Shown here: positions 25,645 through 52,147 of the stretch, piece by piece | Position numbering within the stretch: the stretch's first letter is position 1 | How the letters are laid out: each line of letters begins with the position of its first letter | Assembly: GCA_964016885.1 (NCBI GenBank) | Contig: OZ024744.1 | Location: forward strand, 42,532,001 to 42,596,000 | Reading direction: 5' to 3' | Length of the DNA stretch: 64,000 nt | DNA from: Eledone cirrhosa | Lineage: Eukaryota | Program-made: the position numbers and the translations under genes | Notes under the pieces: generated by a model | Databases searched by the model: none | The model's input: only the letters and a program-made list of their open reading frames with translations | Told to the model about the DNA's origin: nothing

Positions 25645-25820
25645 ACCAAACGCTCAGGCGACATTGTAAAGTGGTCGTGATGGCGACACGACAAAAAATG
25701 CCCAGCCCACACTATAAAGTAGTCGTAAAGATGTCATAGCAAAAGGCACCCAGCGCACACTGTAAAGTGGTAATGTAGGTGTCATGACAAAAAACACCCA
25801 GCACTCAATGTAAATGTTGT
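25645..25820 (+). repeat. Diverged ~40-bp tandem units (CACACTGTAAAGTGGTCGT...AAAAA.CACCCAG) of the SINE/RTE 3' module
   Basis: About four units; the same unit occurs at 51530-51725 (minus), 60340-60460 and 63915-64000 (minus). Confidence 0.7.
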
Positions 25821-25826
25821 CGACAT

Positions 25827-26120
25827 TATGAATTTTAGAAGCTGATAACTAGCACCATGAGGTGGATGCTGGCAGAAGCAGGAGTGGGTAATATGTTGAA
25901 AGTCAACTGTTTCTGACTTTGGTCCTTATCATGACAGTGCTCACCATCCCAGCTCTCTGCTGGAATCCAATATAGGCGAAACATATCATTTTATGCCTAT
26001 CTACATGGGCTGATTAGCCTTATTTGCATATGGAGCTGTTTGCATACCGTATATCACTGGCTTGTAAACATACCGTATATCACTAGATATACAAATACAA
26101 ATACACATACATATATATAT

Positions 26121-26212
<92 letters not shown>

Positions 26213-26467
26213 CTATGTTAGGAGCGAACACCTTAATTCTATTTTCAGGCTGAGATGGCTGACAGCTCTATATGCGAATGAGGTTTTCAGCCCATGTACA
26301 TAGGCATCAAAACTATATGTTTCGCTTATATTAGATTCCAACAGGGAGGGGGAGTGCTGTATTGATAATGACCGAGGTCAGAAACAGTCAACTTTCAACA
26401 GATTACCCACTCCTTCTTCTCCTGGAATTGACCTCATGGTGTTAGCCATCAGCTTCCAAAATTCATA
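25827..26467. repeat. Long imperfect inverted repeat (arms ~25827-26039 and ~26262-26467) around a (TA)n-containing spacer
   Basis: TATGAATTTTAGAAGCTGAT...GAGCTGT is matched in reverse complement by ACAGCTC...ATCAGCTTCCAAAATTCATA along ~210 bp. Confidence 0.85.
26112..26209. repeat. (TA)n microsatellite
   Basis: Directly visible. Confidence 0.97.
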
Positions 26468-26587
26468 GCTAAAGGCTTTCAAATGTGTATTTGTAAACAT
26501 ACTGTATATTGCTAGATATACAAATAAACATACCTATATTTATACAACTATGTCGGACATCTTAATTCTCTCTCTATATATATATGT

Positions 26588-26626
<39 letters not shown>

Positions 26627-26635
26627 CACATATAT

Positions 26636-26800
26636 ATCATCATCAACATCGATTAACGTCTATCTTCCACGCTAGCATGGTTTAGAAGGGTTTGTTCAAA
26701 TTAGAGGCAAGTTGGGTCACGTGACCATGTCTCGCTCATATAGGAGAGTTTCTGGCTGGTTTTCTATGTCTGGATGCCCTTCCTAATGCCAACCACATTG
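26636..26800 (-). mobile_element. SINE/RTE 3'-tail module fragment
   Basis: Reverse complement of GTGGTTGGCATTAGGAAGGGCATCCAG...CATGCTAGCGTGGAAGATAGACGTTAA followed by (GAT)n, like 60455-60620. Confidence 0.75.
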
Positions 26801-26999: not shown

Positions 27000-28854
27000 A
27001 CAAGGGGTAAAAAGTAGGCTGGAACACGTTTTGTGGGTGTTCCCGTCGTCCCTCTGTTTATCTTCCTTAACCTACAGGTTTATATACAGAGAAGGTCCAT
27101 TTACTCGGGCCATTTTTGCCACATTCACCCACCTTTCAGCGAATTTATGGGGTGTAGCACCTCTCTCTCCACTCTCACCGTCCTTCTGAAGTGATACTTA
27201 AAGAAGGGGATAAGTTGTTGCCCGGAGAGAAAGGTGTTTTCACTCAGTCCTTTTAACCTCGTCCACCATATTACCTCTTTCGCCATAGCCACCAGACAGA
27301 GGAAAACTGCCTCTCCTCCATTCTTAAATGAAGGCGGCGGGTGATCCTCACGATGAACTCGGTTGACAACTGGATGCGTCCCACACGTGAGAGCAGCTGT
27401 TCGACATAATTCCACAGGTCGGTCACCCCTGGGCACTGAACAATTGCATGCAGAATGGTTTTAATGTCCTGCTTGCATCTTGGACAGGTCCTTTTGGCAG
27501 GATCTCTGCCAGGGCGTCTGTGCCTGTAGATTTTGTCTCGAACTGGTAGAGCTTCTCGGTAACACTGCCAGGCCAGAGATCTTTGGAAGTTATCCATAGG
27601 CCCAGGACGGAAAGGCCTCCCGAACAGACTGGTCAGTCAGTTCGTCTTCCTCGATGCCTAGAGTTTCCCCGAGAATGCTGTCGCACTTATCCTCCACTAA
27701 TCCTCTATACAATGTCAAGGTGGAGTCTCCGCTGATTGCCGTTTCTGCTTGGTAGAGGGCTGTGAGCGCCTGAAGTGCCAGGCGTTTATTTTCGATCTTC
27801 GCTTGACCCAGGACTGCAGCTCTGTTAGTGAGACGAGTTGTGGAAGAGCTTGTCTCACAAACGACAGCCACACCGGTTAACCGGTCAGGAATACCTGGAG
27901 ATGGGGTAGCCTCAGTGAGTGTTTTCACATCATCAGCCATGGCATGCCCAGCCCTCCATTAGCAGGGTGTGGCAGCAGATGGATCTCCTCACCAAAGGAA
28001 CCTGTTTCTTCCAGAGGAACTTGAAGAGTAGGCGTTCCATTTTGGTGAGGTGTTCGCAGAGACAAGGCACAACTGTCAAGCGGTAGTAGATGATGGATGC
28101 TATGTAAGTGTTTGCCACCTCCGCTCGACGTTTCAAGGAGAGTTTGCACTCAGCCCACTTCTGGGTAAGTGCAAACACCTTTGCAGTGACCTCGTTCCAG
28201 TTCCTGTCCACCTGGGGTTCTGGACCAAACCAGACCCCGAGCAATTTCACTGGTCCTTCCGTCCAGCATCCAAATACGCTGTCAGAAGGCATGGGTTTGC
28301 CTCTCCATGTGCCGAGTTGCAAACCGACAGACTTGTTTCGGTTTAGTCTTGCTCCTGTCAATGTTTCATGTTCCTGTAATAAGTTGCCGATTACTCCGAT
28401 TTCTGAGGTTTTTGACACCATTACAGTTACGTCATCGGCATAGGCTGACGCTGCTTTCCACAGTCCTGGTTCAATCGGGTTGCCCTGCAACAGCTCCAAG
28501 TTCCTCAGTAATGGCTCAAGAGTCAGTACATACAGAATGTAGGAGAGAGGGCATCCATAAGGGATGGAATGCATGATTTGGAATGGCTCCAATAGGTAGC
28601 CATTCACCTTGACTGCCGAGCAGATGCTGGTGTGCATGGAAACAATCCAGCCTCTGAAGATGGGACCGAAGCCGGCCGCCTTGAGAACCGCTTCCAAGTA
28701 TTGATGATGGACCCTTTCCAATACCTTAGACTCATCTAAATTGATCAGAGCCCCACCGAAGCCAGGTTTACACCCTACCCCCTCTAAGATGTATCGCATG
28801 AGGTGGAGGTTGTCGTGTATGGACCTGGTCGGGATTGCACACATTTGCACTTCC
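27000..28854 (-). mobile_element. Tx1-like non-LTR retrotransposon, 5'-truncated decayed copy (E7): RT and C-terminal zinc finger, ORF2 stop at 27072
   Basis: ORF pieces carry IHDNLHL, GCPLS, YADDV and CPRC..HAIVQC and are homologous to the other copies. Several frameshifts; the 3' terminus is not clearly defined. Confidence 0.88.
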
Positions 28855-28856
28855 AA

Positions 28857-28963
28857 AGATATAGATAAATAGACAGTTCGACATACAGACAGACAGGAAG
28901 ACTGGCAGATAGATATGTGGATAGATAGATAGATAGATAGATGGGTAGATAGATAGATAGATA
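28857..28963. repeat. (GATA)n / degenerate GACA-GATA microsatellite between E7 and E6
   Basis: Directly visible. Confidence 0.93.
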
Positions 28964-29198
28964 TATTTCTTTATTAGCCACAAGGGCGCACAAGAAAAGG
29001 GGACAATACAAAGACATGCTGGGGATTTTACATACAATGGGGCAAAAAAATATAAAACAAACAATTACAACAATCGAAATCCCCGAAGGGGGGAGGCGTT
29101 ACAAATGGGTATTTTAATACCCCGTCGATAGAACAACCCTCAACTTCAGGAGGGTGTTGTGCAAGTGCTCCTTTCTTCCTTTTGTTCTCTTCTTCAAC

Positions 29199-32100
29199 CT
29201 ACAGGTTTATAAACAGAGAAGCCCCAATCCCTCGAGCCATTTTTTCCCCATTCACCCACCTTTCAGTAAATTTACTGGGGTGCAGTGCCTCTCTCTCCAC
29301 TCTGATTCTCCTTCTAAAGTGGTATCTAAAGAAGGGAATGAGTTATTGTCCGGGGAGAAAGGCATCTGTCCTCAGTCCTCTCAATCTCATCCACCATATA
29401 ACCTCTTTCACGATAGGCACTATACAGAGGAAAGAAGTTGGCGGTTTGATCCTTACTATGGACTCGGCAGTCAACTGGATTTGTCCCATACGCAACAGCA
29501 GTTGTTCCGCGTAGTTCCACGGGTCGGTTACGCCCGGGCAGTGTACAATTGCGTGCAGGACGGGTTCAATGTCCTGCGCGAATCTTGTACACGTCCTCTT
29601 GGAAGGATCCCTGCCGGGGCGTCTTTGCCTGTAGATCTTGTCACGAACTGGTAGAGCTCCTCGGAAGCACTGCCAGGCCAGGAACCTCTGGAGGTTTTCC
29701 ATGGGTCCCGGGCGGAGTGTCCTACCAAACAGACTGGTGAGTTCTTCGTCTTCGACGCCTAGAGTCGCTCCGAGCACCTCATCGCCCTTGTGACGTACTA
29801 GCCGTCTATAGAATGTCGGAGTGGAGTCTCCACTGATTGCCATGCCTGCTTGACAGAGGACTGTGATCGCCTGAGCGCATTCAATGTGCCAGAGGCCCAT
29901 CTTCTTCGGTCTTGGCTTGACTCAGGACTGCAGCTCCGTCAGCGAGACAAATTGCGGGAAGGCCTGTCTCACAAACGGTGCCCACACCGGTTAGGGGTCG
30001 GTGAGGAATACTTGTAGATGTCGTAGCCTCAGCACATGCTTGCACATCATCAGCCACGGCATTCCCAGCCTGAAGGGTGCTGACAGCAGACGGATCTCCT
30101 CACCAGTGGAACGTGCTTCTTCCAATGGAACTGGAAGAGCATGCGTTCCATCTTAGCGAGGTGTTCACGGGGACAAGGCACGACGGTCAAGCAGTAGTAG
30201 ATGGCGGACGCTATGAAAGTGTTCGCCACCTCCGCTCGACCTTTCAAGGATAGTTTGCACTCTGCCCATTTCTGGGTGAGCGCAAACACCTTGGTCATTC
30301 CAGTTTTTCTCCACCTGGAGGTCTGGACCGAACCAGACCTCGAGCAATTTCACCGGTCCGTCCATCCAGCGTCCGACGACGCTGTCGGACGGCATTGGTT
30401 TGCATCTCCACGTTCCGAGTTGCGAACCGACAGACTTGTCCGGGTTCAGTTTTACTCCTGTGAACCTTTCATATTCCTGCAGTAAGTTGCCGATCTCCCC
30501 GATTTCGGAGGCTTCCGACACCATTACTGTGACGTCATCGGCATAAGCAGACACCGCTTTCAGTAGTCTCAGTTCCAACGGAATGCCCTGCAACAGCTCT
30601 TATTTATGCAGTAGTGGCTCTAGAGTCAGTACGTACAGAATGGAGGAGAGAGGGCATACCAGTCGGATGGAACGCATGATTGCGAACGGCTCCGATAGGT
30701 AGCCGTTCACCTTGACCATCGAGCAGATGTTGGTGTGCATTGCAGTGATCCAGCCTCTAAAGACGGGTCCGAAACCGGCCGCCTTGAGAACCGCTTCCAA
30801 GTATCGATGGTCGACCCTATCGAACGCCTTAGACTGATCTAAATTGATCAGAGCCCCAACAAATCCGGGTTTATACCCCACCCTCTCTATGATGTATCGC
30901 ATGAGGTGGCGGTTGTCGTGTATGGACCTGGTCGGGATTGCACACGTTTGTGCTTTCCCTACCAGGTTCTCGACGACAAGCGCCAACCTCGTTGCCAACA
31001 CCTTGGCCAAAATCTTTAACTCTGTGTTGAGCAGAGTCATGGGCCTAAAGTTGCTTAGTTCGTCCCCTTTGTTTTTCGTCATTCCTGATCAGCGTTACCA
31101 CGCCCCTGCCTGCAGAACTGGGGAATTCTCCCGTTCTGCTGCCAGTTGCAGTAGACGGCCTTGAGGACGCCAGAGAACAAGTCCGGCATGCCTATGTATA
31201 ACTCATAGAGTAGACCATCTATACCGGGTGATTTGCGTTTCCTACAGCGGCCCAGAGCGTCCCATATCTCAGTGGCCCAAACAGTTGCACAAAGTACCGC
31301 TGAAAGACTGCGCACATCTGCTTGGGGTCAACTAGCACGCGTCCGTTTTGGTATTTCAAAGACCGAAACGTGGACTTGTTACCACTTTTCGCCTCTGCCA
31401 CTCGGGCCCAGCTAACAGCTTTCGCTCCCTCGTTTCCTAGAGCACGTGATTTACTTCTGACCACGCAGCCTTCGTATTTCGCGTCGAAGAACTGGTCCAG
31501 TGCCGTTCTTGTTGCTAGCACTCTAGCTACGTTGTCACTCCTAAGCGCTTCCTCTATCTTGGCTACTAGTTCCGTTTCTGTTTTGTTTCTCTCGACTCTA
31601 CTCTAATTGCTTTCTTGAGGGAGTACCACCATCTGTTGTTGACAATTGCTCCCGTCAATTGTTGCTTAACTAATCTACTTATCCGTTCATTGTAGGCTTT
31701 ACGTGTCGGTAGCGACACGTTCAGCTTCCAGTATTCGGGTCCTTGTCTATGTATTCTATCACGGTTGACTATGCAGAGGACTAGTTTGTGGTCTGAATAG
31801 GTAACCATGTGCATTTGTGGACAGCTTAACATCTTCTTGTCCCTCTCTCTAATGAAAAACCTATCTAAATACGATCTAGATGTCCCGCTGCGGTTTGCCC
31901 ACGTCCACTGTGGGGCAGTCGGGAAATCTAGTCGATATCTATCGGCCAGTTGGAATTGGCCGATTAGATTTTTGAGGCTGTTGCACCCTCCTCTACTGGG
32001 ACATGCTCCCACATAGTCCCATCGTGCATCTAGGATACCATTCCAGTCCCCCACTAAAAGTAAGGAGCGAGGCGTTCCCAGAAAAGAGTCTAGACGCTTA

Positions 32101-32474
32101 AAGAAGTCTGGCCGCGATTGCCATTGCCCGGTCGGGACATAAACGGCCACCAGTCTGAAGGCTCCACCTCCAATACTGTTCACGTCGAGGACTACCAGTC
32201 TACCCTCTGGGTCCAAGTGTACTTGCTGTACTTCGACGTCCAGGTTTTTCCGGAACATGACAGCCACTCCCCCTCCACCTCCTGGCTGACAGAGAGATGC
32301 GTAGATCTCAAAGTCATTGAAGATGGGGGTTAGTTGCTGCCTGTTGTGGATCCTGGACTTGGTGATGGCTATCATATCCATACCCTGTGACCTAAGGTCG
32401 TTTAAAAGTTGGCCCTGTTTCCAGGGCATCCCTAGACCACGCACATTCACGCTTCCAACTCGTAAACTAGCTAT
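29199..32474 (-). pseudogene. E6 ORF2: APE endonuclease, reverse transcriptase and C-terminal CCHC; frameshifted
   Basis: APE motifs NVRGL, VAVYVP, GDWN, SYLDR, SDH; RT motifs FRPMTLLN, LDQSKAFDRV, YADDV. Split over at least 7 ORF pieces. Confidence 0.92.
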
Positions 32475-33313
32475 GCTGGTGGAGAAGAGTTGGCGAAAAA
32501 GGACGAAAAGGTGCACTACCTTTTCGTTTCCTGGAGATCGGCTTGTTCAATCCCCATGTGGGTGCTGGAGGGGGTGTTGGGTGGGGTGGGGAAACCTTTT
32601 AACAGGACGCGGTTGATGGGTTTCTGGCAGGGGTTGCCGACATCCTGCGAAAATTTATTTTTCAGGTCACTATAGGTCTCCATAGAAACCCTTATAAGTT
32701 TAAGGTGTGGAGACGATTTTGCTTTAACGAAAGTTTTGCCCTCCGCCACCTTGGGGTTTTGGGAGATGACCTCCATCAAACTCTTGTTGTTTATGTTGAT
32801 GTATGCGTATTGTTGTTTGTGTTTTTTTGTGTTGTTATTGTTTGTTGTTCGTTCGGGAGTTTTCTTTTAATGGTGGGTGCTTGTGTTTGGGGTGGTGTTG
32901 GTGTTGGTTTTGCTGGTAGGGGGATATTTGACTGTGGTGTTGTTTGTGTTGTTGTTTGTGTCTGTGTGTTGGTGTTGGTGATTGAAGTTTTGTGGGTTTT
33001 GTGGTGTCTCTTTTTTTTGTTTTTTGGATTTCCGAGGCTCTTCTTCACTTAAAGAAGGAGAAGCAGCCTCATCTGTTAATGAATAATCATCGTCAGGAGT
33101 GTGTGGAAGGGGTATATTGTGTAGTGGTGGTGTTTCGGTGTGTGTGTGTGTGGTAGTGTTTGATGGAGTGGGATGGGTGGGCTGTGTTCTTCAGGGGTGT
33201 TGTCTGTGTTTTTTCTATTGCTGTTGGTTGAGTGGCTGTTTGTTTTGGTGTGTTTGCTTGTTTCGTGTGTTGTTGTTGTTGTGGTGGTGGTTGTTTTGGT
33301 GTTGGTAACAGTG

Positions 33314-33682
33314 TATAGCGAGAGTACTGGGTTGTATGAATGTAACAAAACGAGACATGGTTTGTGTGTATAATATTTAATTAACAATGGTAGATAGTAT
33401 ACTTGACATGTCAAAGATAGATGTTAGAATGAAACAAAGTTAGTAGTTACCGTTTTGATTGCCAGGCAATGGTGGCTGGCAGAGGACGCCTGGCTAAGGC
33501 CAGGCGCCTGTTGGCCAAATTAATGGCAGAGCCAAATGAGAGGCTCTTGACCTGGTGCCGAAAAGGCAAAGAGAGTTAGAAAGCTTAAAGTTGTTAGTTT
33601 TATAGGGCTCTGACCGGAAGTTGCAGAAAGGGTTCTACTTCCCGTCTAGATCCCAATCAAAACAAGGGAGACAACCGCTACA
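33314..33682 (-). repeat. 3' LTR (369 bp)
   Basis: No difference from 35125-35493 found by eye; contains TATAAAA and ATTAAA on the minus strand. Confidence 0.95.
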
Positions 33683-35091
33683 TAACCTCCCGCCAGAATT
33701 TTAGTGTATAAAAATCGAAATATAAAAATATAAAAATCGAAATATAAAAATCGAAATATAAAAATCGAAAATATGTAGCAAGTTGGCGAGAATGTTGTAA
33801 CAGGCATGAAAATTACGACAAAAGAATGTTTGGAAAAATCAATGATAGATATCAAGGTAGTCAACCGCTCTTGGCCAGAGAACGACTGGACATCCATCTA
33901 TCCATCACCCAAAGATACAATGTAATAAAGTAAAAGTAATAGAAGAGCTCAAAGTTCAAATGTACAAAATATAGTTCACAGGTGTGCAATCACATGACAG
34001 CAGGAAAGAAAGTGTGTTCCAGAGAATGAATGCAGGTGGTCTCTGTTCTGTGCTATATCGTGAAATTTCCAACCTCCGAATGGATTTTCTCACAGGGAGA
34101 GTGCTGCAAAAATAAATTCTCTGGCGTTCTGCTGGTTGTTGGTGAAGCTGTGTTGATGTATTGCTGCTGATGCTGTTGTCTCGCTGGGTGAGCGTATTCG
34201 GTGTTTAAATTCACAGTAAAAAAAAAAAATTTTTTTTTTTTTTAGAAAAAATGAGTTGCGCAAAGTGCTAGAAATAGCAGCCGAAGTTGATGGTCGATGT
34301 TGAGAATGCGTTGACCTGGAAGGGTCAAGAGGCCAGCGACCAGAGAAATAAGCATTCTTAATAAATGCGCGGTTATCAACGGTAAATTTACATTATAAAT
34401 TTATAAACCGGCAAATAGAAGAATATAGCTTAAGGCTGAAGAATCCTTGGCGAGAAATGTTATCTCTGGCGTGCGGCTATGTCTGTGTGTAGAGACATCT
34501 CTGTGAATCGAGAATTTGTGCTGCCTACACGTGCCAATACAAGGTTGAAAAAAATAATATTTCTAACGCGCGAGAAAATGATAGTGCAATTTTGAAAGTG
34601 AGAATGATGAAAAAGAAAGGCTTCACTCAGCATAATTATTGGTGTGAACTTTAGAAAAAAACAAAAAACTTGAACGATGAAGAAAACGATGAACAAAAAG
34701 GCAATGGTTCATCGAAAATAAATGTTCCTGTTGAAATGTTTTTTTAAAGAATATCAAATTTCTTTTTTTTTTTTTTGTGTTTTGAAAGAGTTCGTTGTAA
34801 GAAACGAGAAACATATATATATATCGTGAAATGTTGTTTTTTTTTTTTTTGTTTTGAAAGTGTTCGTTGTAAGAAACGAGAAACATATATATATATTGGT
34901 GAAATGCGACAGTTAATTGATGCGTGAGAGAAAAAGTCTGTCTGTGCGAATTCCACATGTGCGTGTGTGCGTGTCCTTGAGTATTTTCATAGTTTGTCGC
35001 TAAATTTGCTGTGTATTCGTAATGTTACTCACAAAACCAGATGTGCTATTTTTTTCTTTTTTGGGGGGGGTGACCACTTATAGCGATGAAC

Positions 35092-35123
35092 GGCTGCGTG
35101 TTCGTATCACGTCAGGGTTACCA
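35092..35123 (-). promoter_or_regulatory. Primer-binding site complementary to the tRNA-Trp 3' end (extended)
   Basis: TGGTAACCCTGACGTGAT lies 1 nt after the LTR, versus the canonical Trp PBS TGGTGACCCCGACGTGAT; the match continues through the T arm. Confidence 0.88.
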
Positions 35124-35124
35124 A

Positions 35125-35493
35125 TATAGCGAGAGTACTGGGTTGTATGAATGTAACAAAACGAGACATGGTTTGTGTGTATAATATTTAATTAACAATG
35201 GTAGATAGTATACTTGACATGTCAAAGATAGATGTTAGAATGAAACAAAGTTAGTAGTTACCGTTTTGATTGCCAGGCAATGGTGGCTGGCAGAGGACGC
35301 CTGGCTAAGGCCAGGCGCCTGTTGGCCAAATTAATGGCAGAGCCAAATGAGAGGCTCTTGACCTGGTGCCGAAAAGGCAAAGAGAGTTAGAAAGCTTAAA
35401 GTTGTTAGTTTTATAGGGCTCTGACCGGAAGTTGCAGAAAGGGTTCTACTTCCCGTCTAGATCCCAATCAAAACAAGGGAGACAACCGCTACA
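35125..35493 (-). repeat. 5' LTR (369 bp)
   Basis: Direct repeat of 33314-33682, followed by the PBS. Confidence 0.95.
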
Positions 35494-37132
35494 AGTGTTT
35501 TCTTTTGTATTGTTTTGGTTGAGCGTGTTTGTAAAGGGCAGGAGGCATTTAGGTGTGTGGTGCTATTGCAACAAAAGCAATGTGGTTTTCATCCCTCCAC
35601 CGAAATGTTTATGTGGCTGTTATTGTCCACCAGCACTTTTTCTGGTATTTTGGAGATTCTTTCCGGGCTCATTTACACCAGAATCTCCAAATTTGTACCA
35701 GACCACGTGTGTCTGGTTGACTTTTTGATGGAGAGAATGGTATTTTTTCTCTCCTCTAAAACTCCTGCCAATATCCACTAAATATTAATATTTGGTGGTA
35801 CGTTTGTAATTCTGATTTTTTGTGTCCTTTTTCCCAGGTATGTAGGGAAAAGGGTGTATTTTTTTGACAGTATTGGCGTCACTGAGTATCTGCGTGCAAA
35901 GGCCTCGCTTTTGAGGAGTACCGAAATACTCCCGTTCTGTTTTGGCCTTCTGCATAAAGTCAATGTTTGGCAATATCTCCTTCAAGGTTGCTCAGTTTCC
36001 CCTTGACATAGGAATTGTGGTCGTTTTGTTTCATTTGAAGCAGTTCTGAAAGTAATTGTCCTTCGAAATGTCTCCAGACGAATTTCTGGGGGAGTTTATT
36101 TGAAATCCACCGTTTTCACCGAAAGTGATAAACTCCTTTGCTTCAGAGGGCATCTGTTTCGCATTGGAGATATCGAGATCTTTGAATTCTTGTTTTTTGA
36201 TGACTGTTTGTGCAAAAGTTTTTTGGTGTTGTTGTTAATGTTGTTGTTGTGGTTGTCGGTTTTTCCGTTTGTAGTTGTGTCAATGGTTTTATTTTCTGTT
36301 GTTTTTGGTGTCTGTTGTACACTGTGTGGTTCGATCTTCTTTTTATTTTTGTTGTCCATATTGGCTTCCATGGTGACGCCAATACATGCGGAGTTAGAGG
36401 TAACGTTATTATTATTTGTGACTTTCTGTAAAAGTTATTTTTGAGGTGTTGTTGTTGTTGTTGTCGGTTTTTCCGTTTGTAGTTGCTTCTATTGTTTCAT
36501 TTTTTGTGGTTTTTGATGTCTGTTGTAAGCTGTGTGGTCCATCTTGTAAGTTGCATTTTTCGGCTTCTTGGCAAAACAAAACTTTGTTGTCACTATTTGT
36601 CTCCATAGTGACGCCTATGTCGGCAGAAGTTACGGTAACGTTACTCTCTGCATTTCTCTCTCTACGTCAGCGTTCACTAGCGTTCCTTCTACTAAGCTAG
36701 CCATTATCGATAACAAAAGTATAAAATTTTTGAAAAATTTTCAAATATAATTTTCGCCCCTGTGGGGCGAAAACTTATATTACAACTCAGCTGACAATTC
36801 AGCCTGAGTGTTAATCTATCAAACAATATAAATTTTCACACAATAAATTCTGTTTTTGTATAGAAACTTTTACAAAACTTACCGACAATCTAAGGCACGT
36901 CCGGTCGATAGATAGATTTCTTTATTTACCATAAAGGCATAAAAAGAAGGGACAAATACAAAGGGGGGAGTTTACATATAATCGAGTAAAAAGGGTGTAA
37001 AATGAAAATAATCGAAAATAACCTCAAAAGGGAGGGGACGTGATGGGGGTTGCACACACACCCGAAAAAGTGTGCAATCCTTTGCCCGGGGAGCACATGG
37101 AGAAGGTGCTCCCCTCTCCTTCACTTCTTTAC

Positions 37133-40100
37133 CTACAGGATGGTATACAGAGAAGGCCCATTTACACGAGCCATTCTCGCTACTATCACCCACCTTTCAT
37201 AAAACTGCCTGTGGCCAAGCACCTCTCTCTCCATTCTTATCCTTCTTCCGAAGTGATATCGGAAGAAGTAGACCAGACTATGGCCAGAGAGGAAGTTTCC
37301 TGACCTCAGACCTTTCAATCGTGTCCACCAAACAACCTCTTTCAACATGGCTATTACGCACAGAAAAACCGCCTTTGCTTCCTTTGTGAAGAGGGGAGGC
37401 GGTTTGATTGTCATCACGGACTCGGCGGTCAATTTAATCGGCGCCACCCGCGACAGCAGTCGTTCGGCGTAGCCCCACAGATCAGCCACGCCCGGACATT
37501 GCACCAATGCGTGCGCAACGGTTTCTTCGTGACGCACGCATCTAGGGCAAATCTTTTTTGAGGGATCCCTGCCCGGGCGCCCGTGTCTGTAGAGCCTCTC
37601 TCGAACGGGTAGAGCCCCCCCGGTAGCACTGCCAGGCCAATGACTTCTGGAAGTTGTCCATTGGTCCTGGGCCGAAAGTCCTACCGAACAGGCTGGCCAG
37701 TTCGTCTTCTTCCATGTCCAGCGACTCTCCAAGGGTGTCATCGCCCCTGCTAGCCACCAGCCCTCTATAGAATGATGAGGTGGATTCTCCACCGATGGCC
37801 TGGCCCGCTTGCCAGAGAGCCCTGAGCGCCTGAGCACACTCAGTGTGCCAGTCTCCCAGTTTTCCGGATCTTTGCTTGACCCAGGACTGTAGCTCGGTGA
37901 GCGAGACGAGTCTCGGAAAGGCTCGTTTCACGAACGGAGCCCACACCGGTTGACCAGTGAGGAATACCTGTAGGTGCCGTAGCCTTAATGCGTGCCTACG
38001 CATCATCAACCACGGCATCCCCAGCCCTCCTTTCGAAGGTTGTTGGCAGCAGATGGATCTTCTCACCATAGGAGGGCGCTTCTTCCAAAGAAATTGGAAG
38101 AGCATGCGTTCCATGGTGGTGAGTGTTTCCTTAGGGCAAGGCACGACAGTCAGGCGGTAGTAAGTGACGGACGCTATGTAAATGTTCGCCACCTCCGCCC
38201 GGCCTTTTAGGGACAGCTTACACTTGGCCCATTTCTGGGTTAGTGCAAACACCTTGTTCGTAACCTCGTTCCAGTTCTTTTCCACCTGGAGGTCCGGTCC
38301 AAACCAGACCCCAAGCAACTTTACCGGGCCCTCCGTCCAGTGTCCGACGACACCGTCAGGAGGCATCGGTCTGCCTCTCCACGTTCCGAGTTGCAGCCCG
38401 ATGGATTTTTTCCGGTTCAGTTTCGCTCCTGACAACCTTTCGTACTCCTCCAGTAAGGTACCGATCGCCTCGATCTCCGAGTCGGTCGATACCATTACTG
38501 TTACGTCATCGGCGTAGGCCGACAACGCTTTGCTCAATCCTGGTTCCAGGGGGATACCCTGCAACAACTCCAACTTCCTCAGTAAAGGCTCGAGAGTCAA
38601 TACGTACAGAAGGGAGGAGAGAGGGCACCCCTATCGAATGGATCGTGTGATTTCGAACGGCTTCGAAAGGTAGCCGTTCACCTTGATCCTAGAACAGATG
38701 TGGTTGCTATGTAGGGCAGTGATCCAGCCTCTGAAAACAGGACCGAACCCAGCCGCCGCTAGCACCGCATCCAGGTAACCATGGTCGACCCTATCGAAGG
38801 CCTTAGACTGATCCAAGTTGATCAGGGCCCCACCGAAGCCGGGTTTGTTGCCAACCCTCTCTATGATGTATCGCATGAGGTGGAGGTTATCGTGAATGGA
38901 CCTGGATGGGATAGCACATGTCTGCGCATCTCCCACCAGGCCACCCACGACAAGCGCCAACCTCTTTGCTAACACCTTGGCCAAAATCTTTAACTCTGTG
39001 TTTAGCAGGGTTATGGGCTGAAAATTATTTATACTATCCCCCTTGTTCTCGTCCTTCCTCACCAGCGTGACTACGCCCTTGGCTACAGAACACGGAATTC
39101 TCCCGTTCTGCTGCCAATTGCAGTAGACCGCTTCGAGGAGTTCGGAGAAGAAGACCGGCATTGCTAAATAAAGTTCGTAAGGTATACCATCGAGACCTGG
39201 AGATTTGCGTCTGCTGCATTGGCTCAGCGCATCTCCGATCTCATCAGCCGAGATTGGTCCCTCGCAGGACTCTGCCTCTTCGCTCGAGAGACGCGGCAGG
39301 CCGTGGAGGTATGGACCGAAATCCACGCCCCCGCCCGGACCCTCGCCTCCCCCGAACAATCGGGCAAAGTGCCTTTGAAAGGCCTCGCACATCTGCTTAG
39401 GCTCCCGGATCACCCGTCCATCTTCGTCTTGCAACGACCGGATGGTGGATCGATTTCCACTCTTAGCTTCTGTCACGCGGGCCCAGCCAACGGCTTTGGC
39501 CCCCTCATTACCTAGAGCACGTATTTTACTTCGAATGACGCAGCCTTCGTGCTTTGCATCGAAAAACTGGTTCAAGGCCGTCCTCGATGCCAGCACTCTG
39601 GCCACATCTTCGCTCTTGATTGCCTCTTCTAATTTACCTGTTAATTCTTTCTCGTTTCTATTCCTATCGGCAGCTAACATCTTGCTATAACTTATTGATT
39701 CTGTTCTAATCTCTCTTTTGAGAGATGCCCACCATCGGTTGTTGACGATTGCACCCGTCAACCTCTCCTTAACTAATCTGCTAATCCGGTTTCTGTAAGT
39801 CTCTTTTGCTGGTAAAGACAAATTAAGTTTCCAGTAACCGGGACCCTGTCTATGTGTTTTCTCGAGATTGACCACGCAGGTCACTAATTTGTGATCCGTG
39901 TAGCCAACCGTGCGCATTTCTGGACAGCTTAATATGTCCCTATCCTTACTTCTAACTAAGAATCTATCTAAGTACGATCTAGATTGACCACTGTGGTTTC
40001 TCCAAGTCCAGGTAGGCACAGTTGGAAAATCTAGTCGATATCTATCGACCAAGTTAAAACGGTCGAGTAACCCCTTGAGGCTGTTACACCCCCTCTATTA

Positions 40101-40570
40101 GGACATGCTCCTGCATAGTCCCAACGTGCATCCAGGATGTCATTCCAATCCCCCGCTAGAAACAGGGAACGCGACGTTCCCAGAAAAGTCTCCAAACGCT
40201 GGAAGAAGTCGGGCCGTTCAGCTCCGAAAGGGGAGTAGACGGCGACCAGTCTCAAGGCCGCACTTTCACTACTGCCAACGTCTAGCACCAACAAACGACC
40301 CTCCGGGTCCGAGTGCACAACCTGTACGGCAAGACCCAGGTGTTTTTGCAGCAGTACGACAACCCCACCCCCACCTCCAGGTTGACAGAGAGATGCATGC
40401 ACCTCAAAGTCATCGAAGGTGGGGGCCAGCTGCCGCACGACGCTGATTCGAGTCTCACAGATAACCATTACATTTATACTACATGACCTGAGGTCATTTA
40501 GAAGCTTTGCTTGCTTCCAAGTTGAGCCCAGGCCACGTGCATTCAAACATCCTACTCTTAACACATCCAT
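37133..40570 (-). pseudogene. E5 ORF2: APE endonuclease, reverse transcriptase and C-terminal zinc finger
   Basis: NARGL, CET, GDWN, SYLDR, TDH; LDQSKAFDRV, YADDV; CPRC..HALVQC. Broken by frameshifts near 40080 and 37620 and a stop at 38631. Confidence 0.94.
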
Positions 40571-40603
40571 GTGGGCGGCAGAGCCAAAGGAGAGTGTAGA
40601 GAC

Positions 40604-42480
40604 CTACCTTTCCGCTTCCCGGGGTTCGGGTTGCACGACTTCCATGGGGTCGGGGGTGTTGGGTGAAGGGGTGTCTTGTGGTGGTGTGGGGTCGTCAGTG
40701 TGTGGTGGGGTTGGGGTGTTTGGAGTTGTGTTGGGGAGGGGAAGGGGAGGGGGAAAGCTTTTTAGTAGGACGCGGTTTATGGGTTTGACAGAGGGTGGTC
40801 CTACGTCCTCCTTAAAATCCTTTTTTAGTTTTTGGTAGAGGTTCATTGGGATCTTTATTAATTTTAAATGTGGGTAGTTTTCTGACGAAACAAAGTTTAC
40901 ACCTTCGGTTTGTACCGAAGGATTATTGTATATGAGTTCATTTAATTTATTATTGTTTCTGTTGATGTAAGTATAGTGTAATGTCTTTTTTTCGGATGGT
41001 GTGAGTGTTTCGAAGAGGGGAGGGGCAGGTTTGGTTTTGTTTGTTGCTGGAGGGGTGTTTCCTGTTTTGTTGGATTGTGTTGAGATTTGGGTGGGGGTTG
41101 TTTGTCCTTGTGTGTTTTGCACATGTTTTCTTTTTTTCCTTTTAATCTGTCTGAAGGACTCCGTTTCTTCCTCCGAATTCGTTGGGTTATCTTCAGTGTT
41201 GGAGGGAAGAGGTATGTTTGCTGGTAATGTTTCCGTGTTGGTTTTCTTTGTGGGTGAGATGGATGTCACTATGTTAGACTGTGTTGTGTGTTGTGTCTGC
41301 GGTGGTTGTGTTGTTTTATTGAGTGAGAGGTTGGGTGGGCCTGTATTTTGTTTTGGGGTAATGTGTTGTGACTGTTTGTGTTGTGGTGGTGTTGTGGTTT
41401 TACTGAGGGACGGGTTGGGTGGGACTGAGTTTTGTTGTTTGTTTATCTGTTGTGGTGGTGGTGGTGGAGCTGGTGTTGGTAGCAGGGTTTTCTTTTTGTT
41501 GAGTTGGGGACAAGCGGCCTTCAGGTGCCCTCTGCCTGCACAGATATGGCAGGACGGCCTTCTCCCCTCCATGCTAATGTTTATATATCCGTGGTCCTCT
41601 AATAGGATTCTGTCGGGTATTTGGGCGATGCGTTCAGGCTTCATTTGCACTACCAGCTCTATACCTGTTCCACTGAACGCATTGCCTGTGGTTTTCCCAA
41701 TGGAAATCACGTTGTCATTCACTGGATCGATGAAGCCAGCTATGAGCCAGCAGTAGTCCACATCTGGCATCATTGCATCCAGTCATATGCGTTGAGTTCT
41801 TTTCCCCATATAAGATGGATAAAAGGTGAAATTTTTCGAACGAATCGGTGACAAAGCACATTTTTTTGCCGCCGATTCGTTCTTCATGATAATTGCTAGG
41901 CTTCCATACAGTCTGTCTTTTCTTATGAAAGTGGTTTCATTAAGTACTTCTGTGAGTACTGTTTTGATATCTGCTTGAGAAGGCTGTTCAGGTTTTTTTG
42001 TACTGTTGTTGATGGTCCGAAACTTGACCGTTCGGCTTTCAATGTCTTTCGTGAATTCTTGAGGCATTTTTACCGATAAAAAATACCATTCTCTCCTTCA
42101 CTTGTGTATTGTTTGGCGTCTGTGATCCTTCGTACCACATCTGAAATATTTTCCGCTATATAAGTCAAAGATTTCTTTGTTTTCTGTGCAAATGAAATCT
42201 TGTCGTCTGCTTTGCTTTCTGATATGGTGTTATTTTCAAATGTTATTTTTGTGTTTGTTGTGTCTTTGTTTGTGTTATTAGTATTGTCATGCAATTTTTC
42301 AAATTTTTTTTTTTCGTTGTTGGAATCCATGTCCAGATTTGTGTTTTCGTCATTTTTTTTCTCCGCAGATTCGTCTGTTTTTATTTTAATTTTTCCTTCC
42401 TTCTCTATGACGTTAGTTTGGAAGGAAGGGGGGACTAAAGCGTGCGAGCTTACAACTCTTACCGCTGTCCCCCCCACCAC
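40604..42480 (-). pseudogene. E5 ORF1: gag-like nucleic-acid-binding protein with a CCHC knuckle and a Pro/Thr/Gln-rich tail
   Basis: CHICAGRGHLKAAC (CX2CX4HX4C). One in-frame TGA at 41783 and a frame change near 42070; the start codon is uncertain. Confidence 0.88.
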
Positions 42481-42759
42481 TATTTTCGTTCGCTGCGTTT
42501 AACATTTCTGTTAGACGATTGAAATTTTTTACACAAAATTTTTTAAAACAGGTTTTTCACCTCTAGGAGGGGTAAAGATGAGCTGACCCACCGCCTGACA
42601 GTTCAGACGGAGGGTCAAGCTACACAATTGTATCAAAATTAAGTTTGAACTCACAAAATTTCCTCAATAAATTTGAACAAAACTTCTGTGCGAAGTGAAT
42701 GACATCCACACTCTAGAACAGACGACAGCTAGATTGTCCGGTCGATAGATAGATAGATA

Positions 42760-43139
42760 TATTTCTTTATTAGCCACAGGGGCACAAAAGAAGGGGACAA
42801 ATACAAAGGGGGAAGTTTACATACAATAAAAACGTGTAAAATGTTATCACAGATGGAATTTAAAAGTTAGTCGATTTTCCCCAATAGAGGGAGACAGTTT
42901 ATATGGGTAACACATACCCCCGAAAAAATGTGCAACCCTCATCTCCAGGAGTACGAAGAGCTTGTACTCCTTTCCTCTCCTCCTCCTTTTCCTCAATCTA
43001 CAGGCTGATATAGAGAGAAGGCCCATTCACTCGGGCCATTCTCGCCACTTTCACCCACCTTTCATAAAACTTGCTGCGGTACAGCACCTCTCTCTCCATC
43101 CTGATTCTTCTTCCAAAGTGGTATTTGAAAAAAAGAATC

Positions 43140-43140
<1 letters not shown>
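42760..43140 (-). mobile_element. Tx1-like 3' fragment (E4), ~380 bp, bounded by (GATA)n on both sides
   Basis: Encodes the ORF2 C-terminus LILFFKYHFGRRIRMEREVL...GPSLYISL* plus the 3' UTR. Confidence 0.93.
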
Positions 43141-43216
<76 letters not shown>

Positions 43217-43718
43217 TGTTTCTTTATTAGCCACAGGGGCACAAAAGAAGGGGACAAATACAAAGGGGGAAGTTTACAAACAATAAAAACGTGTAAAATG
43301 TTATCACAAATGCAATTTAAAAAGTTAGTCGATTTTCCCCAATAGGGGGAGACAGTTCATATGGGTAACACATACCCCCGAAAAAATGTGCAACCCTCAA
43401 CTCCAGGAGTACGAAGAGTTTGTACTCCTTTACTCTCCTCCTCCTTGTCCTCAACCTACAGGCTGATATAGAGAGAAGGCCCATTCACTCGGGCCATTCT
43501 CGCCACTTTCACCCACCTTTCATAAAACTTGCTGGGTTACAGCACCTCTCTCTCCATCCTGATTCTTCTTCCAAAGTGGTATTTGAAAAAAAGAATCAGT
43601 TGTTGGCCGGAGAGAAAGGTGTCTGACCTCAGCCCTTTCAACCTTGTCCACCATACAACCTCTTTCGCCATAGCTATCACACAAAGGAAAACCGCCTCCC
43701 CTTCGTTTTTGAAGGAGG
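43217..43718 (-). mobile_element. Tx1-like 3' fragment (E3), ~500 bp, bounded by (GATA)n
   Basis: Nearly identical to E4 over the shared part; extends to AVFLCVIAMAKEVVWW. Confidence 0.93.
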
Positions 43719-43752
43719 TAGATAAATAGATAGATAGATAGATAGATAGATA

Positions 43753-43798
43753 TATTTCTTTATTAGCCACAGGGGCACAAAAGAAGGGGACAAATACA
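43753..43798 (-). mobile_element. Tx1-like extreme 3' stub (E2), ~46 bp, bounded by (GATA)n
   Basis: TTTCTTTATTAGCCACAGGGGCACAAAAGAAGGGGACAAATACA is identical to the E3/E4 termini. Confidence 0.88.
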
Positions 43799-43820
43799 TA
43801 GATAGATAGATAGATAGATA

Positions 43821-45611
43821 TATTTCTTCTAGGGCATCAAAAGTGGGACAAGTACAAAGGGGAGAGTTTACACAAAAAGGCGTCCTCAATAAGGAGGAGG
43901 CAATAACAAAATATAAAAATAAAATAAGATATAACAAAAAATAAAATTTTTAACAAAATCCTCAATAGAGAGGAGGCGCCTTGGGGGGTCGCACACACCC
44001 CCGAAAAAAGTGTGCAACCCTTCTCCTCAGGAGCACAGAGAAGGGGTGCTCCCTTGGTCTTTCATCTTCCTCACCTATAGTCTGATGTAGAGTGAAGGCC
44101 CATTCACACGGGCCATTCTCGCCACTTTCACCCATCTTTCATAGAAACGGCTGGGGTGCAGCACCTCTCTCTCCATCCTGATCCTTCTTCCGAAATGATA
44201 TCGGAAGAAACGGACCAGTTGTTGGCCAGAGAGAAAGGTGCCCGACCTCAGTCCTTTCAGACGCGTCCACCATACAACCTCTTTCGCCATGGCTATTACG
44301 CACAGAAACACCGCCTCTGCTTCATCTTTGAAGGGGGGAGGCGGCTTGATCATTACAATAGACTCGGTGGTCAACCGGATCGGTCCCACCCTTGACAGCA
44401 GTTGTTCGACATAACCCCACAGATCGGCTACGCCCGAGCAGTGTACTAATGCGTGTGCAACGGTTTCCTCGTCGCACACGCATCTGGGACAGATCTTTTT
44501 GGCGGGGTCCCTACCCGGGCGCCCGTGTCTGTAGAGCCTTTCTCGAACGGGTAAAGCCCCTCGGTAGCACTGCCAGGCCAGGGACTTCTGGAAGTTGTCC
44601 ATAGGTCCCGGGCTGAATGTCCTACCGAACAGGCTGGCCAGTTCGTCCTCCTCCATGTCTAGGGCTTCTCCGAGGGCGTCGTGGCACCTGCTGCGTACCA
44701 GCCCTCTATAGAATGTTGCGGTGGAGTCTCCACTGATAACCGGATCCGCCTGCCAGAGGGCGGTGAGCGCCTGGGCACACTCAGTGTGCCAGGCGCCCAG
44801 TTTTCTCGGCCTTTGCTTGACCCAGGATTGCAGCTCGGTGAGTGAGACGAGTCTGGGAAAGGTTCGTCTCACAAACGGAGCCCACACCGGTTGTCCGGTG
44901 AGGAATACGTAGAGGTGCCGTAGCCTTAATGCGTGTTTACGCATCATTAGCCACGGCATCCCCAGCCCTCCTTTCGAAGGGTGTTGACAGCAGATGGATC
45001 TCCTCACCATAGGAGCCCGCCTCTTCCAAAGGAATTGGAAGAGCGCGCGCTCCATCTTGGTGAGGGTTTCCCTTGGGCAGGGCACTACGGTCAGGCGGTA
45101 GTAGATGACGGACGCTATGTAGGTGTTCGCCACCTCCGCCCGACCTTTCAGGGATAGTTTGCAACTGGCCCACTTCTGGGTCAGTGCAAACACCCTGTTC
45201 GTAACCTCCGCCCAGTTTTTCTCCACCTGGAGGTCCGGTCCGAACCAGACCCCGAGCAACTTCACCGGGCCCTCCGTCCAGCGTCCGACGACGCTATCGG
45301 AGGGCATCGGTCTGCCCCTCCACGTGCCGAGTTGCAAACCGATCGACTTGTCCCGGTTCAGCTTAGCCCCTGTGAACTTTTCGTACTCCTCCAGTAAGGT
45401 GCCGACCGCCTCGATTTCGGAGGCCGTCGACACCATTACTGTCACGTCATCGGCGTAGGCCGACACCGCTTTCCGCAATCCCGGTTCCAAAGGGATGCCC
45501 TGCAAGAACTCCAACTTCCGCAGTAGTGGCTCGAGAGTCAACACATACAGAAGGGAGGAGAGAGGGCACCCTTGTCGGATGGACCGCGCGATTTTGAACG
45601 GCTCCGAGAGG

Positions 45612-45614
<3 letters not shown>
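43821..45614 (-). mobile_element. Tx1-like 5'-truncated copy (E1), ~1.8 kb, with an uninterrupted ORF2 C-terminal half (stop at 44075)
   Basis: RQGCPLS, YADDV and CPRC..HALVHC lie in one open frame; the 5' junction runs straight into (GATA)n. Confidence 0.95.
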
Positions 45615-45654
<40 letters not shown>

Positions 45655-45810
45655 ACTGACAGACTGTCAGACAGGCAGGTAGGTAGATAGGTAGGTGGGA
45701 AGTGGGTTTGGAGTGGGTGGATGAATGAATAGACACAGATCTAGACAGACAGACAATGAGACAGACTGACTTAGAAATAGATATACTGAGTGACAGACAG
45801 GTACAAAGGT
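45612..45810. repeat. (GATA)n grading into degenerate GACA/GGTA tetranucleotide repeat
   Basis: Directly visible. Confidence 0.9.
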
Positions 45811-50879: not shown

Positions 50880-51020
50880 GCAGCATAGAGTTACAGTCCT
50901 TTAAGGTCTGAGTTCAAATCCTGCCGAGGTTAACTTTGCCTTTCATCCTTATGGGGTTGATAAAATAAAGTACCTGTAATGCACTGGGATAATTGCTGGC
51001 CTTGTGCCAAAAGTAGAAAA
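50880..51020 (+). mobile_element. tRNA-derived SINE fragment
   Basis: CTGAGTTCAAATCCTGCCGAGGTTAACTTTGCCTTTCATCCTTATGGGGTTGATAAAATAAAGTACC. Confidence 0.75.
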
Positions 51021-51039
51021 ATTATTTTATACATGTATA

Positions 51040-51356
51040 TCATCATCATCATCATCATTTTACGTCTGCTTTTCCCTGATTGGGAACTGATTCTGGCTTG
51101 ATTTCTACAGCTGGATGCCCTTCCTAACACCAACCTCATTTACAGTGAGTGCTGGGTGCTTTTTTGCTGTGGCACCTCCACGACCACTTTGCAGTGGAAT
51201 GATAGGGACCCCAGTCCCTATCATCTCATTTCTACAGCTGAGTAAACTGGAGCAATGTCAAAATAAAGTGTCTTGCTCAAGGAAACAACACATCATCCGG
51301 TCTGAGATTTGAACTCACAACCTTTCGATTGCAAGGCTCTAACCACTAAGCCATGT
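51040..51356 (-). mobile_element. Full composite SINE: tRNA head, central domain and RTE-type tail ending in (GAT)n
   Basis: A box TGGCTTAGTGG, B box GAGTTCAAATC, CCTTGAGCAAGACACTT, tail GAAAAGCAGACGTAAAATGATGATG; second copy at 52891-53224. Confidence 0.85.
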
Positions 51357-51364
51357 ATATATAT

Positions 51365-51725
51365 ATCATCATCATCATCACCATTTAACGTCTATTTTTC
51401 CATGCTGGGATGGGTTAGACGAGTTATCCTGCTCTGAACAATTCTAGGTCAGGTGACCATGTCTTGCTTGTACAGAACTGATTTTGGTTTGATTTCTACA
51501 GCTGAATGCTCTTCCTAGCCCACCAACCACATTTACAGTGAGTGGTGGGTGCTTTTTGTCATGACGCCTACATGACCACTCTACAGTGTGGAGTGGGTGT
51601 TTTTTGCCGTGACACTTACATGACCACTTTACAGTGTGAACTGGGTATTTTTTCCAGTCACACCTACACGACCACTTTACAGTGTGGGCTGGGCACTTTT
51701 TTTCTGTGTCGCCATCATGACCATT
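51365..51725 (-). mobile_element. SINE/RTE 3' module with ~5 tandem ~40-bp units
   Basis: Repeated ACCACTYTACAGTGTG units plus the CATGGAAAAATAGACGTTAAATG tail. Confidence 0.75.
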
Positions 51726-51774
51726 ATATATATATATATAATAGCCGGAGGAGCGTTCTTTAGTTTGATAGATA

Positions 51775-52115: not shown

Positions 52116-52147
<32 letters not shown>

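What the first reader, a model, noticed from the sequence alone, without database searches (positions are those of the whole stretch)
27000..45810. Head-to-tail stack of seven Tx1-like LINEs, every junction a (GATA)n tract: candidate GATA-microsatellite-targeting, self-perpetuating retrotransposon array
Seen: seven copies from several diverged subfamilies, all on the minus strand, abut one another with only (GATA)n between them (28857-28963, 36907-36917, 42744-42759, 43140-43216, 43719-43752, 43798-43820, 45612 onward). Six end in GAAA(TA)(TCTA)n with no poly(A). Both full-length copies begin TATC|GACCGGAC. Degenerate GACA/GATA tracts at 28857 and 45650 look like halves of one old microsatellite pushed ~16.7 kb apart. 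Known: Tx1-group APE elements are often sequence-specific (Kibi/Koshi in TC/TTC repeats, Keno in U2, Dewa in tRNA arrays), and R1-clade Waldo/Mino target ACAY/AC repeats. Inference: this family's endonuclease nicks (GATA)n, and each insertion leaves or extends a TCTA tail that is a fresh target. That would build polar arrays reminiscent of telomeric retrotransposon arrays. I do not recall a described GATA-specific Tx1 family but cannot search.
Basis: partly seen in the sequence, partly recalled or inferred. Interest (0 to 1): 0.9.

Follow-up and report, generated by a model that had tools for sequence, protein, structure and literature searches.

The report
GATA-seeking retrotransposon with TAA-seeking sister
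Seven copies of a recently active jumping gene sit head to tail because the family inserts into GATA repeats and duplicates that landing site each time, while its closest sister family in the same genome lands in TAA repeats instead, likely through changes in the DNA-cutting enzyme; repeat-seeking jumping genes are known, but this pair offers a ready test of how they change aim.

Summary
The stack is real: seven co-oriented L1/Tx1-type LINE pieces from five subfamilies. GATA targeting holds genome-wide. 77 of 92 resolved 5' junctions lie in GATA, including 26 of 34 randomly truncated copies, against 0 of 23 for an RTE control and 0.25% background. At least 11,674 3' ends follow TAGATA. Two corrections. 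The TCTA 'tail' is the target-site duplication (TSD; 17-23 bp in E3, 10-15 bp in E1/E5 types): an empty allele in raw data has one copy and no added repeats. The shared GACCGGAC start is E2's 5' end copied into E3's TSD. Stacks grow by re-insertion into TSDs, always co-oriented, at interstitial sites; they are not telomere-like. A sister clade (about 67% ORF2 identity, about 11,300 ends) targets (TAA)n; one target change separates the two on every tree. The family is recently active (13 of 37 full-length E3 copies have both ORFs open). Microsatellite-targeting Tx1 elements and tandem insertion across a TSD are known. I found no GATA target in nine literature searches; Repbase and Dfam were not searchable. 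This scan noted the GATA family before, in this genome and others.

The parts
27021..28857 (-). E1: older subfamily, 5'-truncated, last ~200 bp of the 3' end missing; RT and C-terminal part, broken
   Evidence: 92-95% to relatives
28858..28963 (+). Degenerate GATA/GACA tract, likely the left part of the original microsatellite plus TSDs
28964..36906 (-). E2: full-length, old (91-93% to relatives), both ORFs broken; 5' terminus GACCGGAC
33314..35493 (-). Non-autonomous LTR-type insertion in E2 ORF1: identical 369-bp LTRs (33314-33682, 35125-35493), 4-bp TSD AGTG, no ORF over 133 codons
36899..36916 (+). Left copy of E3's 18-bp TSD (E2's terminal 8 nt plus GATAGATAGA)
36917..42735 (-). E3: full-length 5.8 kb, young subfamily (99% to relatives); ORF1 with a CX2CX4HX4C knuckle, ORF2 APE-RT-zf with two frameshifts and one stop in this copy
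42736..42759 (+). Right copy of E3's TSD (42736-42753) running into (GATA)4
42760..43141 (-). E4: 5'-truncated, E5-type subfamily
43141..43216 (+). (GATA)19
43217..43718 (-). E5: 5'-truncated, 98.6% to relatives
43719..43752 (+). GATA tract
43753..43798 (-). E6: 45-bp 3' stub of the E5 type
43799..43820 (+). GATA tract
43821..45614 (-). E7: 5'-truncated, young (99%), open RT/C-terminal frame; 5' junction has GGTAG microhomology with the tract
45612..45810 (+). (GATA)10 then degenerate GACA/GGTA tract, likely the right part of the original microsatellite

Best explanation
This is a recently active L1-group LINE lineage that inserts into GATA repeats in one fixed orientation and duplicates 10-23 bp of the target without adding a tail, so later copies insert into the duplicated repeat and form head-to-tail stacks; its APE endonuclease likely chooses the site by nicking the GATA strand at or just 5' of TAG^A. 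Shown: target, polarity, TSD, no tail, nesting order, recent activity, and a sister clade on (TAA)n. Inferred: target-primed reverse transcription starts at a fixed RNA end just after AAUAAA, helped by at most ~5 nt of microhomology; a second nick 10-23 nt away sets a subfamily-specific TSD; the GATA/TAA difference lies in a few APE surface residues (hairpin tip S/T versus I/M; Y versus C at the position aligned to L1 R155; CQP versus S-R/K-P). The window stack was built in two waves: E1 and E2 first (7-9% diverged), then E3-E7 (1-2%).
For: 5' junctions with a GATA-phase 8-mer: E5 16 of 18 resolved (29 examined), E1 10 of 16 (29), E3 27 of 29, E2 24 of 29. RTE control 0 of 23 resolved of 29; background 0.25%. 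3' ends by lineage (233 assigned of 253): GATA lineage 143 GATA, 0 TAA, 1 both, 8 neither; TAA lineage 76 TAA, 0 GATA, 5 neither. Genome counts: 28,517 exact 3'-end motifs, 11,674 after TAGATA, 11,311 after TAATAA. TSDs anchored by non-repeat bases: 11 E3 copies of 37 with both ends, 18-23 bp (read by eye), 7 E1/E5-type, 10-15 bp. An empty allele of L099 in run X1 has one TSD copy joined to the right flank. TSDs that captured a neighbour's end: window E3, L083, L122. Clustering: 20 of 99 consecutive GATA-type pairs within 8 kb (1.6 expected), all 20 co-oriented; GATA-TAA cross pairs 2 versus 3.3 expected. 25 of 39 E3 copies have a co-oriented neighbour, 1 opposite. Copies on different contigs differ by 1-4 nt in 5.8 kb; 13 of 37 have both ORFs open. 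One label change on all five trees; GATA clade 95/100 (whole ORF2) and 99/99 (RT). Candidate residues; role of the hairpin and R155 in L1 from PMC1950540 passages.
Against: No nicking assay and no RNA data (one search listed no RNA run). 15 of 92 resolved 5' junctions miss the strict rule; most carry shorter or degenerate GATA, but some have none (L008, L213, L215, L226). Minimal targets such as (TA)n-TAGA or (GA)n-GATA are used, so the target is a short TAGA-type word enriched in GATA tracts rather than a long array. Searches scored only the 40 best hits, which favours young, intact copies. The automatic TSD script found an exact duplicate of 10 nt or more in only 44 of 104 two-ended elements, partly because boundaries over-ran into the repeat. 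One tandem pair (L117/L118) is identical with identical spacers, so some stacks may arise by duplication. Diagnostic APE residues rest on a single lineage split and may be passengers; PMC1950540 argues loop flexibility matters more than loop sequence in L1. The empty allele is one 63-nt contig, possibly from the sample behind the assembly.
Confidence: 0.8

Rival explanations
1. The RNA, not the endonuclease, picks the target: transcripts read through into the copy's own TSD, end in (UCUA)n, and pair with a nicked GATA strand; the endonuclease is only loosely AT-specific.
For: AATAAA lies 4-8 nt from the fixed 3' end, so cleavage would fall inside the repeat (sequence; distance rule from general knowledge). 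Junctions are in phase with the repeat and never carry poly(A). An earlier scan note (e1-8671301, untested here) proposes an RNA-borne target copy for another Tx1 family in this genome.
Against: Anchored sites with only ATAGA or AGATAGA gained no extra units (L095, L093; L099), whereas free annealing of a repeat tail should often add them. Off-target copies in (GAT)n exist (36 matches, about 30 places) but founded no large lineage. Target follows the protein tree with one change.
Confidence: 0.15
2. The elements carry an encoded (TCTA)n tail, as CR1/L2 elements do, and insert without real target choice; stacks are passive accumulation in a repeat-rich region.
For: Every intact 3' end is followed by TCTA units; the site lies beside a 25-kb satellite.
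Against: 26 of 34 resolved 5'-truncated copies, cut at unrelated positions, abut GATA at the 5' side. Empty allele without a tail. GATA-type and TAA-type copies do not cluster with each other.
Confidence: 0.02
3. The stack is an assembly artefact or a tandem duplication of one unit.
For: No listed contig piece spans the stack; L117/L118 elsewhere are identical.
Against: The five subfamilies are 70-84% alike, differ in age and are nested through a TSD. A 99-nt contig matches 36838-36936 across the E2/E3 junction with no difference (only about 20 nt lie beyond the tract). Like stacks occur across the genome, and truncated-end-to-3'-end joints appear in reads of two other samples.
Confidence: 0.03

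Closest known systems
Kibi (TC)n, Koshi (TTC)n and crocodilian Tx1 families on (TTCC)n/(TTTC)n (PMC4494074, passages; PMC3812793, passages)
   Same: APE-type LINEs of the L1/Tx1 group with microsatellite-specific insertion; related families differ in repeat unit.
   Different: Targets here are GATA and TAA, neither named for Tx1 in the passages read; ORF2 is short (about 1,145 aa); both lineages are young with intact copies in one invertebrate genome; kinship to Kibi/Koshi was not testable.
Tandem SINEU-3 insertions sandwiching a TSD (PMC4494074) and tandem Utopia-1_NVit (PMC4640811, passages)
   Same: Sequential insertion into a regenerated target gives head-to-tail copies.
   Different: Here autonomous LINEs of five subfamilies and two ages share one microsatellite.
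Dong (R4 clade) on (TAA)n; Waldo/Mino (R1 clade) on ACAY/AC (PMC3812793)
   Same: Microsatellite targeting; Dong shares the TAA target with the sister lineage.
   Different: Other clades; Dong has a restriction-like endonuclease (recalled; the review lists it among APE elements), so TAA targeting would be convergent.
Telomeric HeT-A/TART/TAHRE and TRAS/SART arrays (recalled; PMC5537684 seen only as a search listing)
   Same: Polar head-to-tail arrays.
   Different: Interstitial, over 11,000 dispersed sites, no end elongation, no repeat synthesis beyond the TSD.
L1-Tx1 families of Octopus vulgaris (PMC13282606, first third of text and term search; PMC8967140, passages)
   Same: 13 recently active L1-Tx1 families are listed for O. 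vulgaris; homologues of this lineage may be among them.
   Different: No target, GATA or nesting is mentioned in the main text searched; libraries and supplements were not seen.

Membership tests
L1 group non-LTR retrotransposon | N-terminal APE endonuclease in ORF2 | tested here: met
   PF03372, E 5.9e-8, over cut-off; catalytic N, E, D, D, H positions align to L1 (E3 has DR for L1's DH before the final DH)
L1 group non-LTR retrotransposon | RT closer to L1 than to R2 or RTE | tested here: met
   PDB hits L1 ORF2p E 3.6e-51 versus R2 2.5e-20; groups with plant L1 and a TX1-named protein, away from RTE
L1 group non-LTR retrotransposon | C-terminal zinc motif, two ORFs, 5' truncation, TSD | tested here: met
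   PF13966 E 8e-6, just under cut-off; ORF1 643 and ORF2 1156 codons stop to stop
Tx1 clade | RT monophyly with Tx1L, Keno, Kibi, Koshi | tested here: inconclusive
   No reference sequences available; the tree is an open fork that holds a coral protein named 'Transposon TX1', a fish protein and plant L1
Tx1 clade | ORF1 with a CCHC zinc knuckle (feature recalled) | tested here: met
   CX2CX4HX4C in E3 and both TAA ORF1s; PF00098 only E 0.29
Tx1 clade | Target-sequence preference (over 20% of flanks, criterion of PMC4494074) | tested here: met
   77 of 92 resolved 5' junctions
Kibi/Koshi | (TC)n or (TTC)n target | tested here: not met
   GATA or TAA instead
Microsatellite-targeting APE element | Endonuclease cleaves the target specifically | not testable with these tools
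   needs a nicking assay
CR1/L2-type repeat-tailed LINE | Element-encoded tandem-repeat tail added at insertion | tested here: not met
Telomeric retrotransposon array | Chromosome-end location and end elongation | tested here: not met
   C28:42.56 Mb of 136.5 Mb; dispersed copies
Catalogued Repbase/Dfam family | Match to a named consensus with a recorded target | not testable with these tools
   no such library on hand

The most novel reading that the evidence does not exclude
The element has no tail of its own; each transcript picks up the target sequence from its own TSD and uses it as a short guide for the next insertion, so a copy that lands in a new repeat can found a lineage with a new target. 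The GATA/TAA split would then be a target switch inherited through RNA, with the endonuclease adapting afterwards.
Probability: 0.15. Interest if true: 0.85.

Novelty: new variant of a known kind. Interest (0 to 1): 0.55.

Why it matters
How APE endonucleases of LINEs gain and change sequence specificity is open: loop grafts between distant elements gave only partial answers (PMC1950540). Here two sister lineages with APE domains 60-66% identical, both with intact natural copies and thousands of insertions, use different repeats with no cross-over in 233 ends. A short list of residues can be swapped directly, which bears on engineering site-specific insertion tools. For the host, about 3 of 10 sampled GATA tracts carry the family, so it reshapes this microsatellite class and could upset GATA markers. 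With RTE on (TA)n, three LINE lineages divide the genome's microsatellites among them.

Tried and rejected
Single-sequence fold of the E3 APE domain: pLDDT 35, unusable, not searched. ESM Atlas: generic APE-RT clusters, no taxa. Homologue searches gave no named Kibi, Koshi, Keno or Tx1L. No RNA holder listed. RAD-seq of another sample did not cover the L099 flank. Direction of the switch: TAA monophyly neither shown nor rejected (p-AU 0.25 RT, 0.47 whole ORF2; P0001 was labelled TAA by tree position only, its flanks are unknown). A third, (GAT)n-targeting lineage with the same 3' end: only 36 matches; the 30 best zf-RVT loci were TAA-lineage type where the end was legible. 3'-terminal hairpin: z -0.3 to -2.4 in 4 of 4 folded, weak. 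The 20-bp outer repeat as proof that E7 came first: rejected as ambiguous, since E7 supplies GGTAG and is younger than E2. In one search ten RTE 'junctions' were gaps in my reference; one search is used for that control. Literature searches without a GATA-targeting LINE. Kojima and Fujiwara 2004 and the Tx1L endonuclease paper were not held; supplements and Fig. 3 of PMC4494074, which list Tx1 targets, could not be seen and may name GATA or TAA.
Full report
Observation. The window (G000:C28:42,532,001-42,596,000; 3.0-Gb genome) holds seven minus-strand LINE pieces between 27021 and 45614, separated only by GATA-type tracts. They encode APE, RT and zf-RVT domains. Self-comparison gives five subfamilies, 70-84% alike, with E4, E5 and E6 forming one. 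E1 and E2 are 91-95% identical to their nearest fetched relatives, E3-E7 98-99.5%, so the stack formed in two waves. E1 has lost its last ~200 bp. E2 carries a non-autonomous LTR-type insertion with identical LTRs and an AGTG duplication, a dispersed family with 1,851 candidates. The host is probably an octopod; that label comes from earlier scan notes and recall, not from a test of mine.

Target. I collected copies with element-only queries and read the flanks. With a fixed rule (8-nt GATA-phase word within about 33 nt; 45 for E2), 5' junctions were GATA in 16 of 18 resolved E5-type copies (29 examined, 11 ran off the locus), 10 of 16 E1-type (29 examined), 27 of 29 full-length E3 ends and 24 of 29 E2-type ends: 77 of 92. 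The 34 truncated copies end at unrelated positions, so their GATA cannot be element sequence. An RTE family from the same window gave 0 of 23 resolved junctions in GATA, mostly (TA)n instead; random DNA gives 0.25% (39 stretches, 390 kb). Genome-wide, an exact 17-nt 3'-end motif occurs 28,517 times, 11,674 times after TAGATA; the motif misses E3 and E7 types, so this is a floor. In the random sample 3 of about 10 GATA tract clusters carried family sequence (my grouping). Against: 15 of 92 junctions miss the rule, a few with no GATA at all, and only the 40 best hits per search were scored.

The tail is a TSD. Of 39 full-length E3 copies fetched, 37 had both ends; 11 have duplications anchored by non-repeat bases, 18-23 bp, ending in TAGA and abutting the element's fixed end (read by eye). 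Seven E1/E5-type copies show 10-15 bp (12 anchored of 104 two-ended elements, the script over-ran many boundaries). Sites with as little as ATAGA gained no units. For L099, run X1 holds a 63-nt contig that joins the left flank and one TSD copy to the right flank, the predicted empty allele. In two copies (L100, L128) the right duplicate ends in TAG, which puts the nick at or 5' of TAG^A on the GATA strand (inference). In the window, GTCCGGTCGATAGATAGA occurs at 36899 and 42736; E2-type ends carry GTCCGGTC and no other E3 end does. So E3 inserted into the GATA beside E2's 5' end and copied it. L083 and L122 show the same capture. This is direct evidence for insertion into an earlier element's TSD.

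Stacking. 25 of 39 E3 copies have a co-oriented family neighbour within 250 nt, 1 an opposite one, 13 none. Among the first 100 GATA-type ends on C1, 20 of 99 consecutive pairs lie within 8 kb (1.6 expected), all co-oriented; for 99 TAA-type ends 25 pairs, 23 co-oriented; GATA-TAA cross pairs are at chance, 2 versus 3.3. Stacking is therefore target-specific, not a shared graveyard. Tandem pairs L107/L108 and L103/L104 differ by 18-20 nt and have closer kin elsewhere (independent insertions); L117/L118 are identical (duplication or assembly). Growth per event is one TSD, and sites are interstitial, so the telomere analogy is superficial. E2-type 5' ends are stacked more often than other junctions (23 of 29 versus 19 of 63, p 1e-5); age may explain it, I did not resolve it.

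Activity. E3 copies on different contigs differ by 1-4 nt in 5.8 kb, 13 of 37 have both ORFs open, and one has an empty allele. No RNA run was listed.

Sister lineage. A random stretch (L136) held a relative flanked by (TAA)n. Its family has TAA at 3' ends and at 7 of 11 resolved 5' junctions (29 examined), GATA at none. Across 233 assigned 3' ends of 253 found, no GATA-lineage end lay in pure TAA and no TAA-lineage end in GATA. 11,311 genome matches follow TAATAA, a few counted twice. Intact ORFs exist. ORF2 identity between lineages is 65-72%, APE 60-66% (leaving out the degraded L297). Trees of APE, tether, RT, C-terminus and whole ORF2 each need one change; the GATA clade has 95/100 and 99/99 support in whole ORF2 and RT, weaker in APE and C-terminus; direction is unresolved. 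Broken copies entered these trees as concatenated tblastn pieces. APE differences include the tip of the betaB6-betaB5 hairpin (S/T versus I/M), Y versus C at the column aligned to L1 R155, and CQP versus S-R/K-P. PMC1950540 (passages) places that hairpin and R155 at target recognition in L1, but also finds loop flexibility more important than sequence. With one split, these residues are candidates only.

Mechanism. Shown: target, polarity, TSD without tail, nesting, recent activity, two clades with two targets. Inferred: APE nicks the GATA strand; reverse transcription starts at a fixed RNA end after AAUAAA with at most ~5 nt of pairing; a second nick sets the TSD; each TSD is a new target (0.8). 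The main rival is an RNA guide picked up from the TSD (0.15).

Known or new. Microsatellite-targeting Tx1 families are known for TC, TTC, TTCC and TTTC, and tandem insertion across a TSD is described (PMC4494074 passages; PMC3812793 passages; PMC4640811 passages). L1-Tx1 families are listed as active in O. vulgaris without targets in the text searched (PMC13282606). Nine searches found no GATA-targeting LINE, but Repbase, Dfam, Kojima and Fujiwara 2004 and the supplements of PMC4494074 were out of reach. L1-group membership is met; strict Tx1-clade membership is inconclusive. The scan recorded this GATA family earlier in this genome (e1-9510316) and two other windows. Verdict: new variant of a known kind; interest 0.55, carried mainly by the testable GATA/TAA pair.

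Noticed in passing
window 1-25112: Satellite of a 26-bp unit, about 920-970 copies, 85-90% matches, with internal blocks recurring at about 5,362 and 4,292 bp, suggesting higher-order repeats.
   Followed up: no
window 33314-35493: Non-coding LTR-type element with identical LTRs, 4-bp TSD, a purine tract and a primer site resembling tRNA-Trp (recalled); 1,851 candidates, pairs 1.7-1.8 kb apart elsewhere.
   Followed up: partly
window 53330-56200 (-) and 57390-60300 (+): Two RTE-type LINEs (65% alike, RT with an inserted PHD-like finger); the family of the second inserts mostly into (TA)n.
   Followed up: partly
L136:1610-7720; L310; L327: TAA-targeting sister lineage with intact copies and its own head-to-tail stacks; L136 seems to sit in the TAA tail of another LINE.
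   Followed up: yes
L062-L090: 23 of 29 E2-type full-length 5' ends have another family 3' end within 200 nt, far more than other junction classes; unexplained.
   Followed up: partly
window 40605-40615 and 32519-32530; L305, L293, L310: A splice-donor-like AAG|GTA(A/G)G lies just upstream of ORF2 in E3, E1, E2 and one TAA type (4 of 7 checked by exact motif), as earlier scan notes report.
   Followed up: partly
window 36920-36950, 43220-43250; L136:1625-1660: A small stem-loop just before AATAAA recurs in both lineages; folding support is weak.
   Followed up: partly
L014: An E5-type copy with an apparent duplication of about 60-90 bp that includes the neighbour's 5' end.
   Followed up: no
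window 25650-26800, 51020-53330, 60360-64000: Several copies of abundant SINE-like repeats with (CAT)n ends, and of a second short repeat at 47360, 48750, 50850, 62540-62990.
   Followed up: no
L099:6130-6190: A perfect ~58-nt palindrome next to the polymorphic E3 insertion.
   Followed up: no
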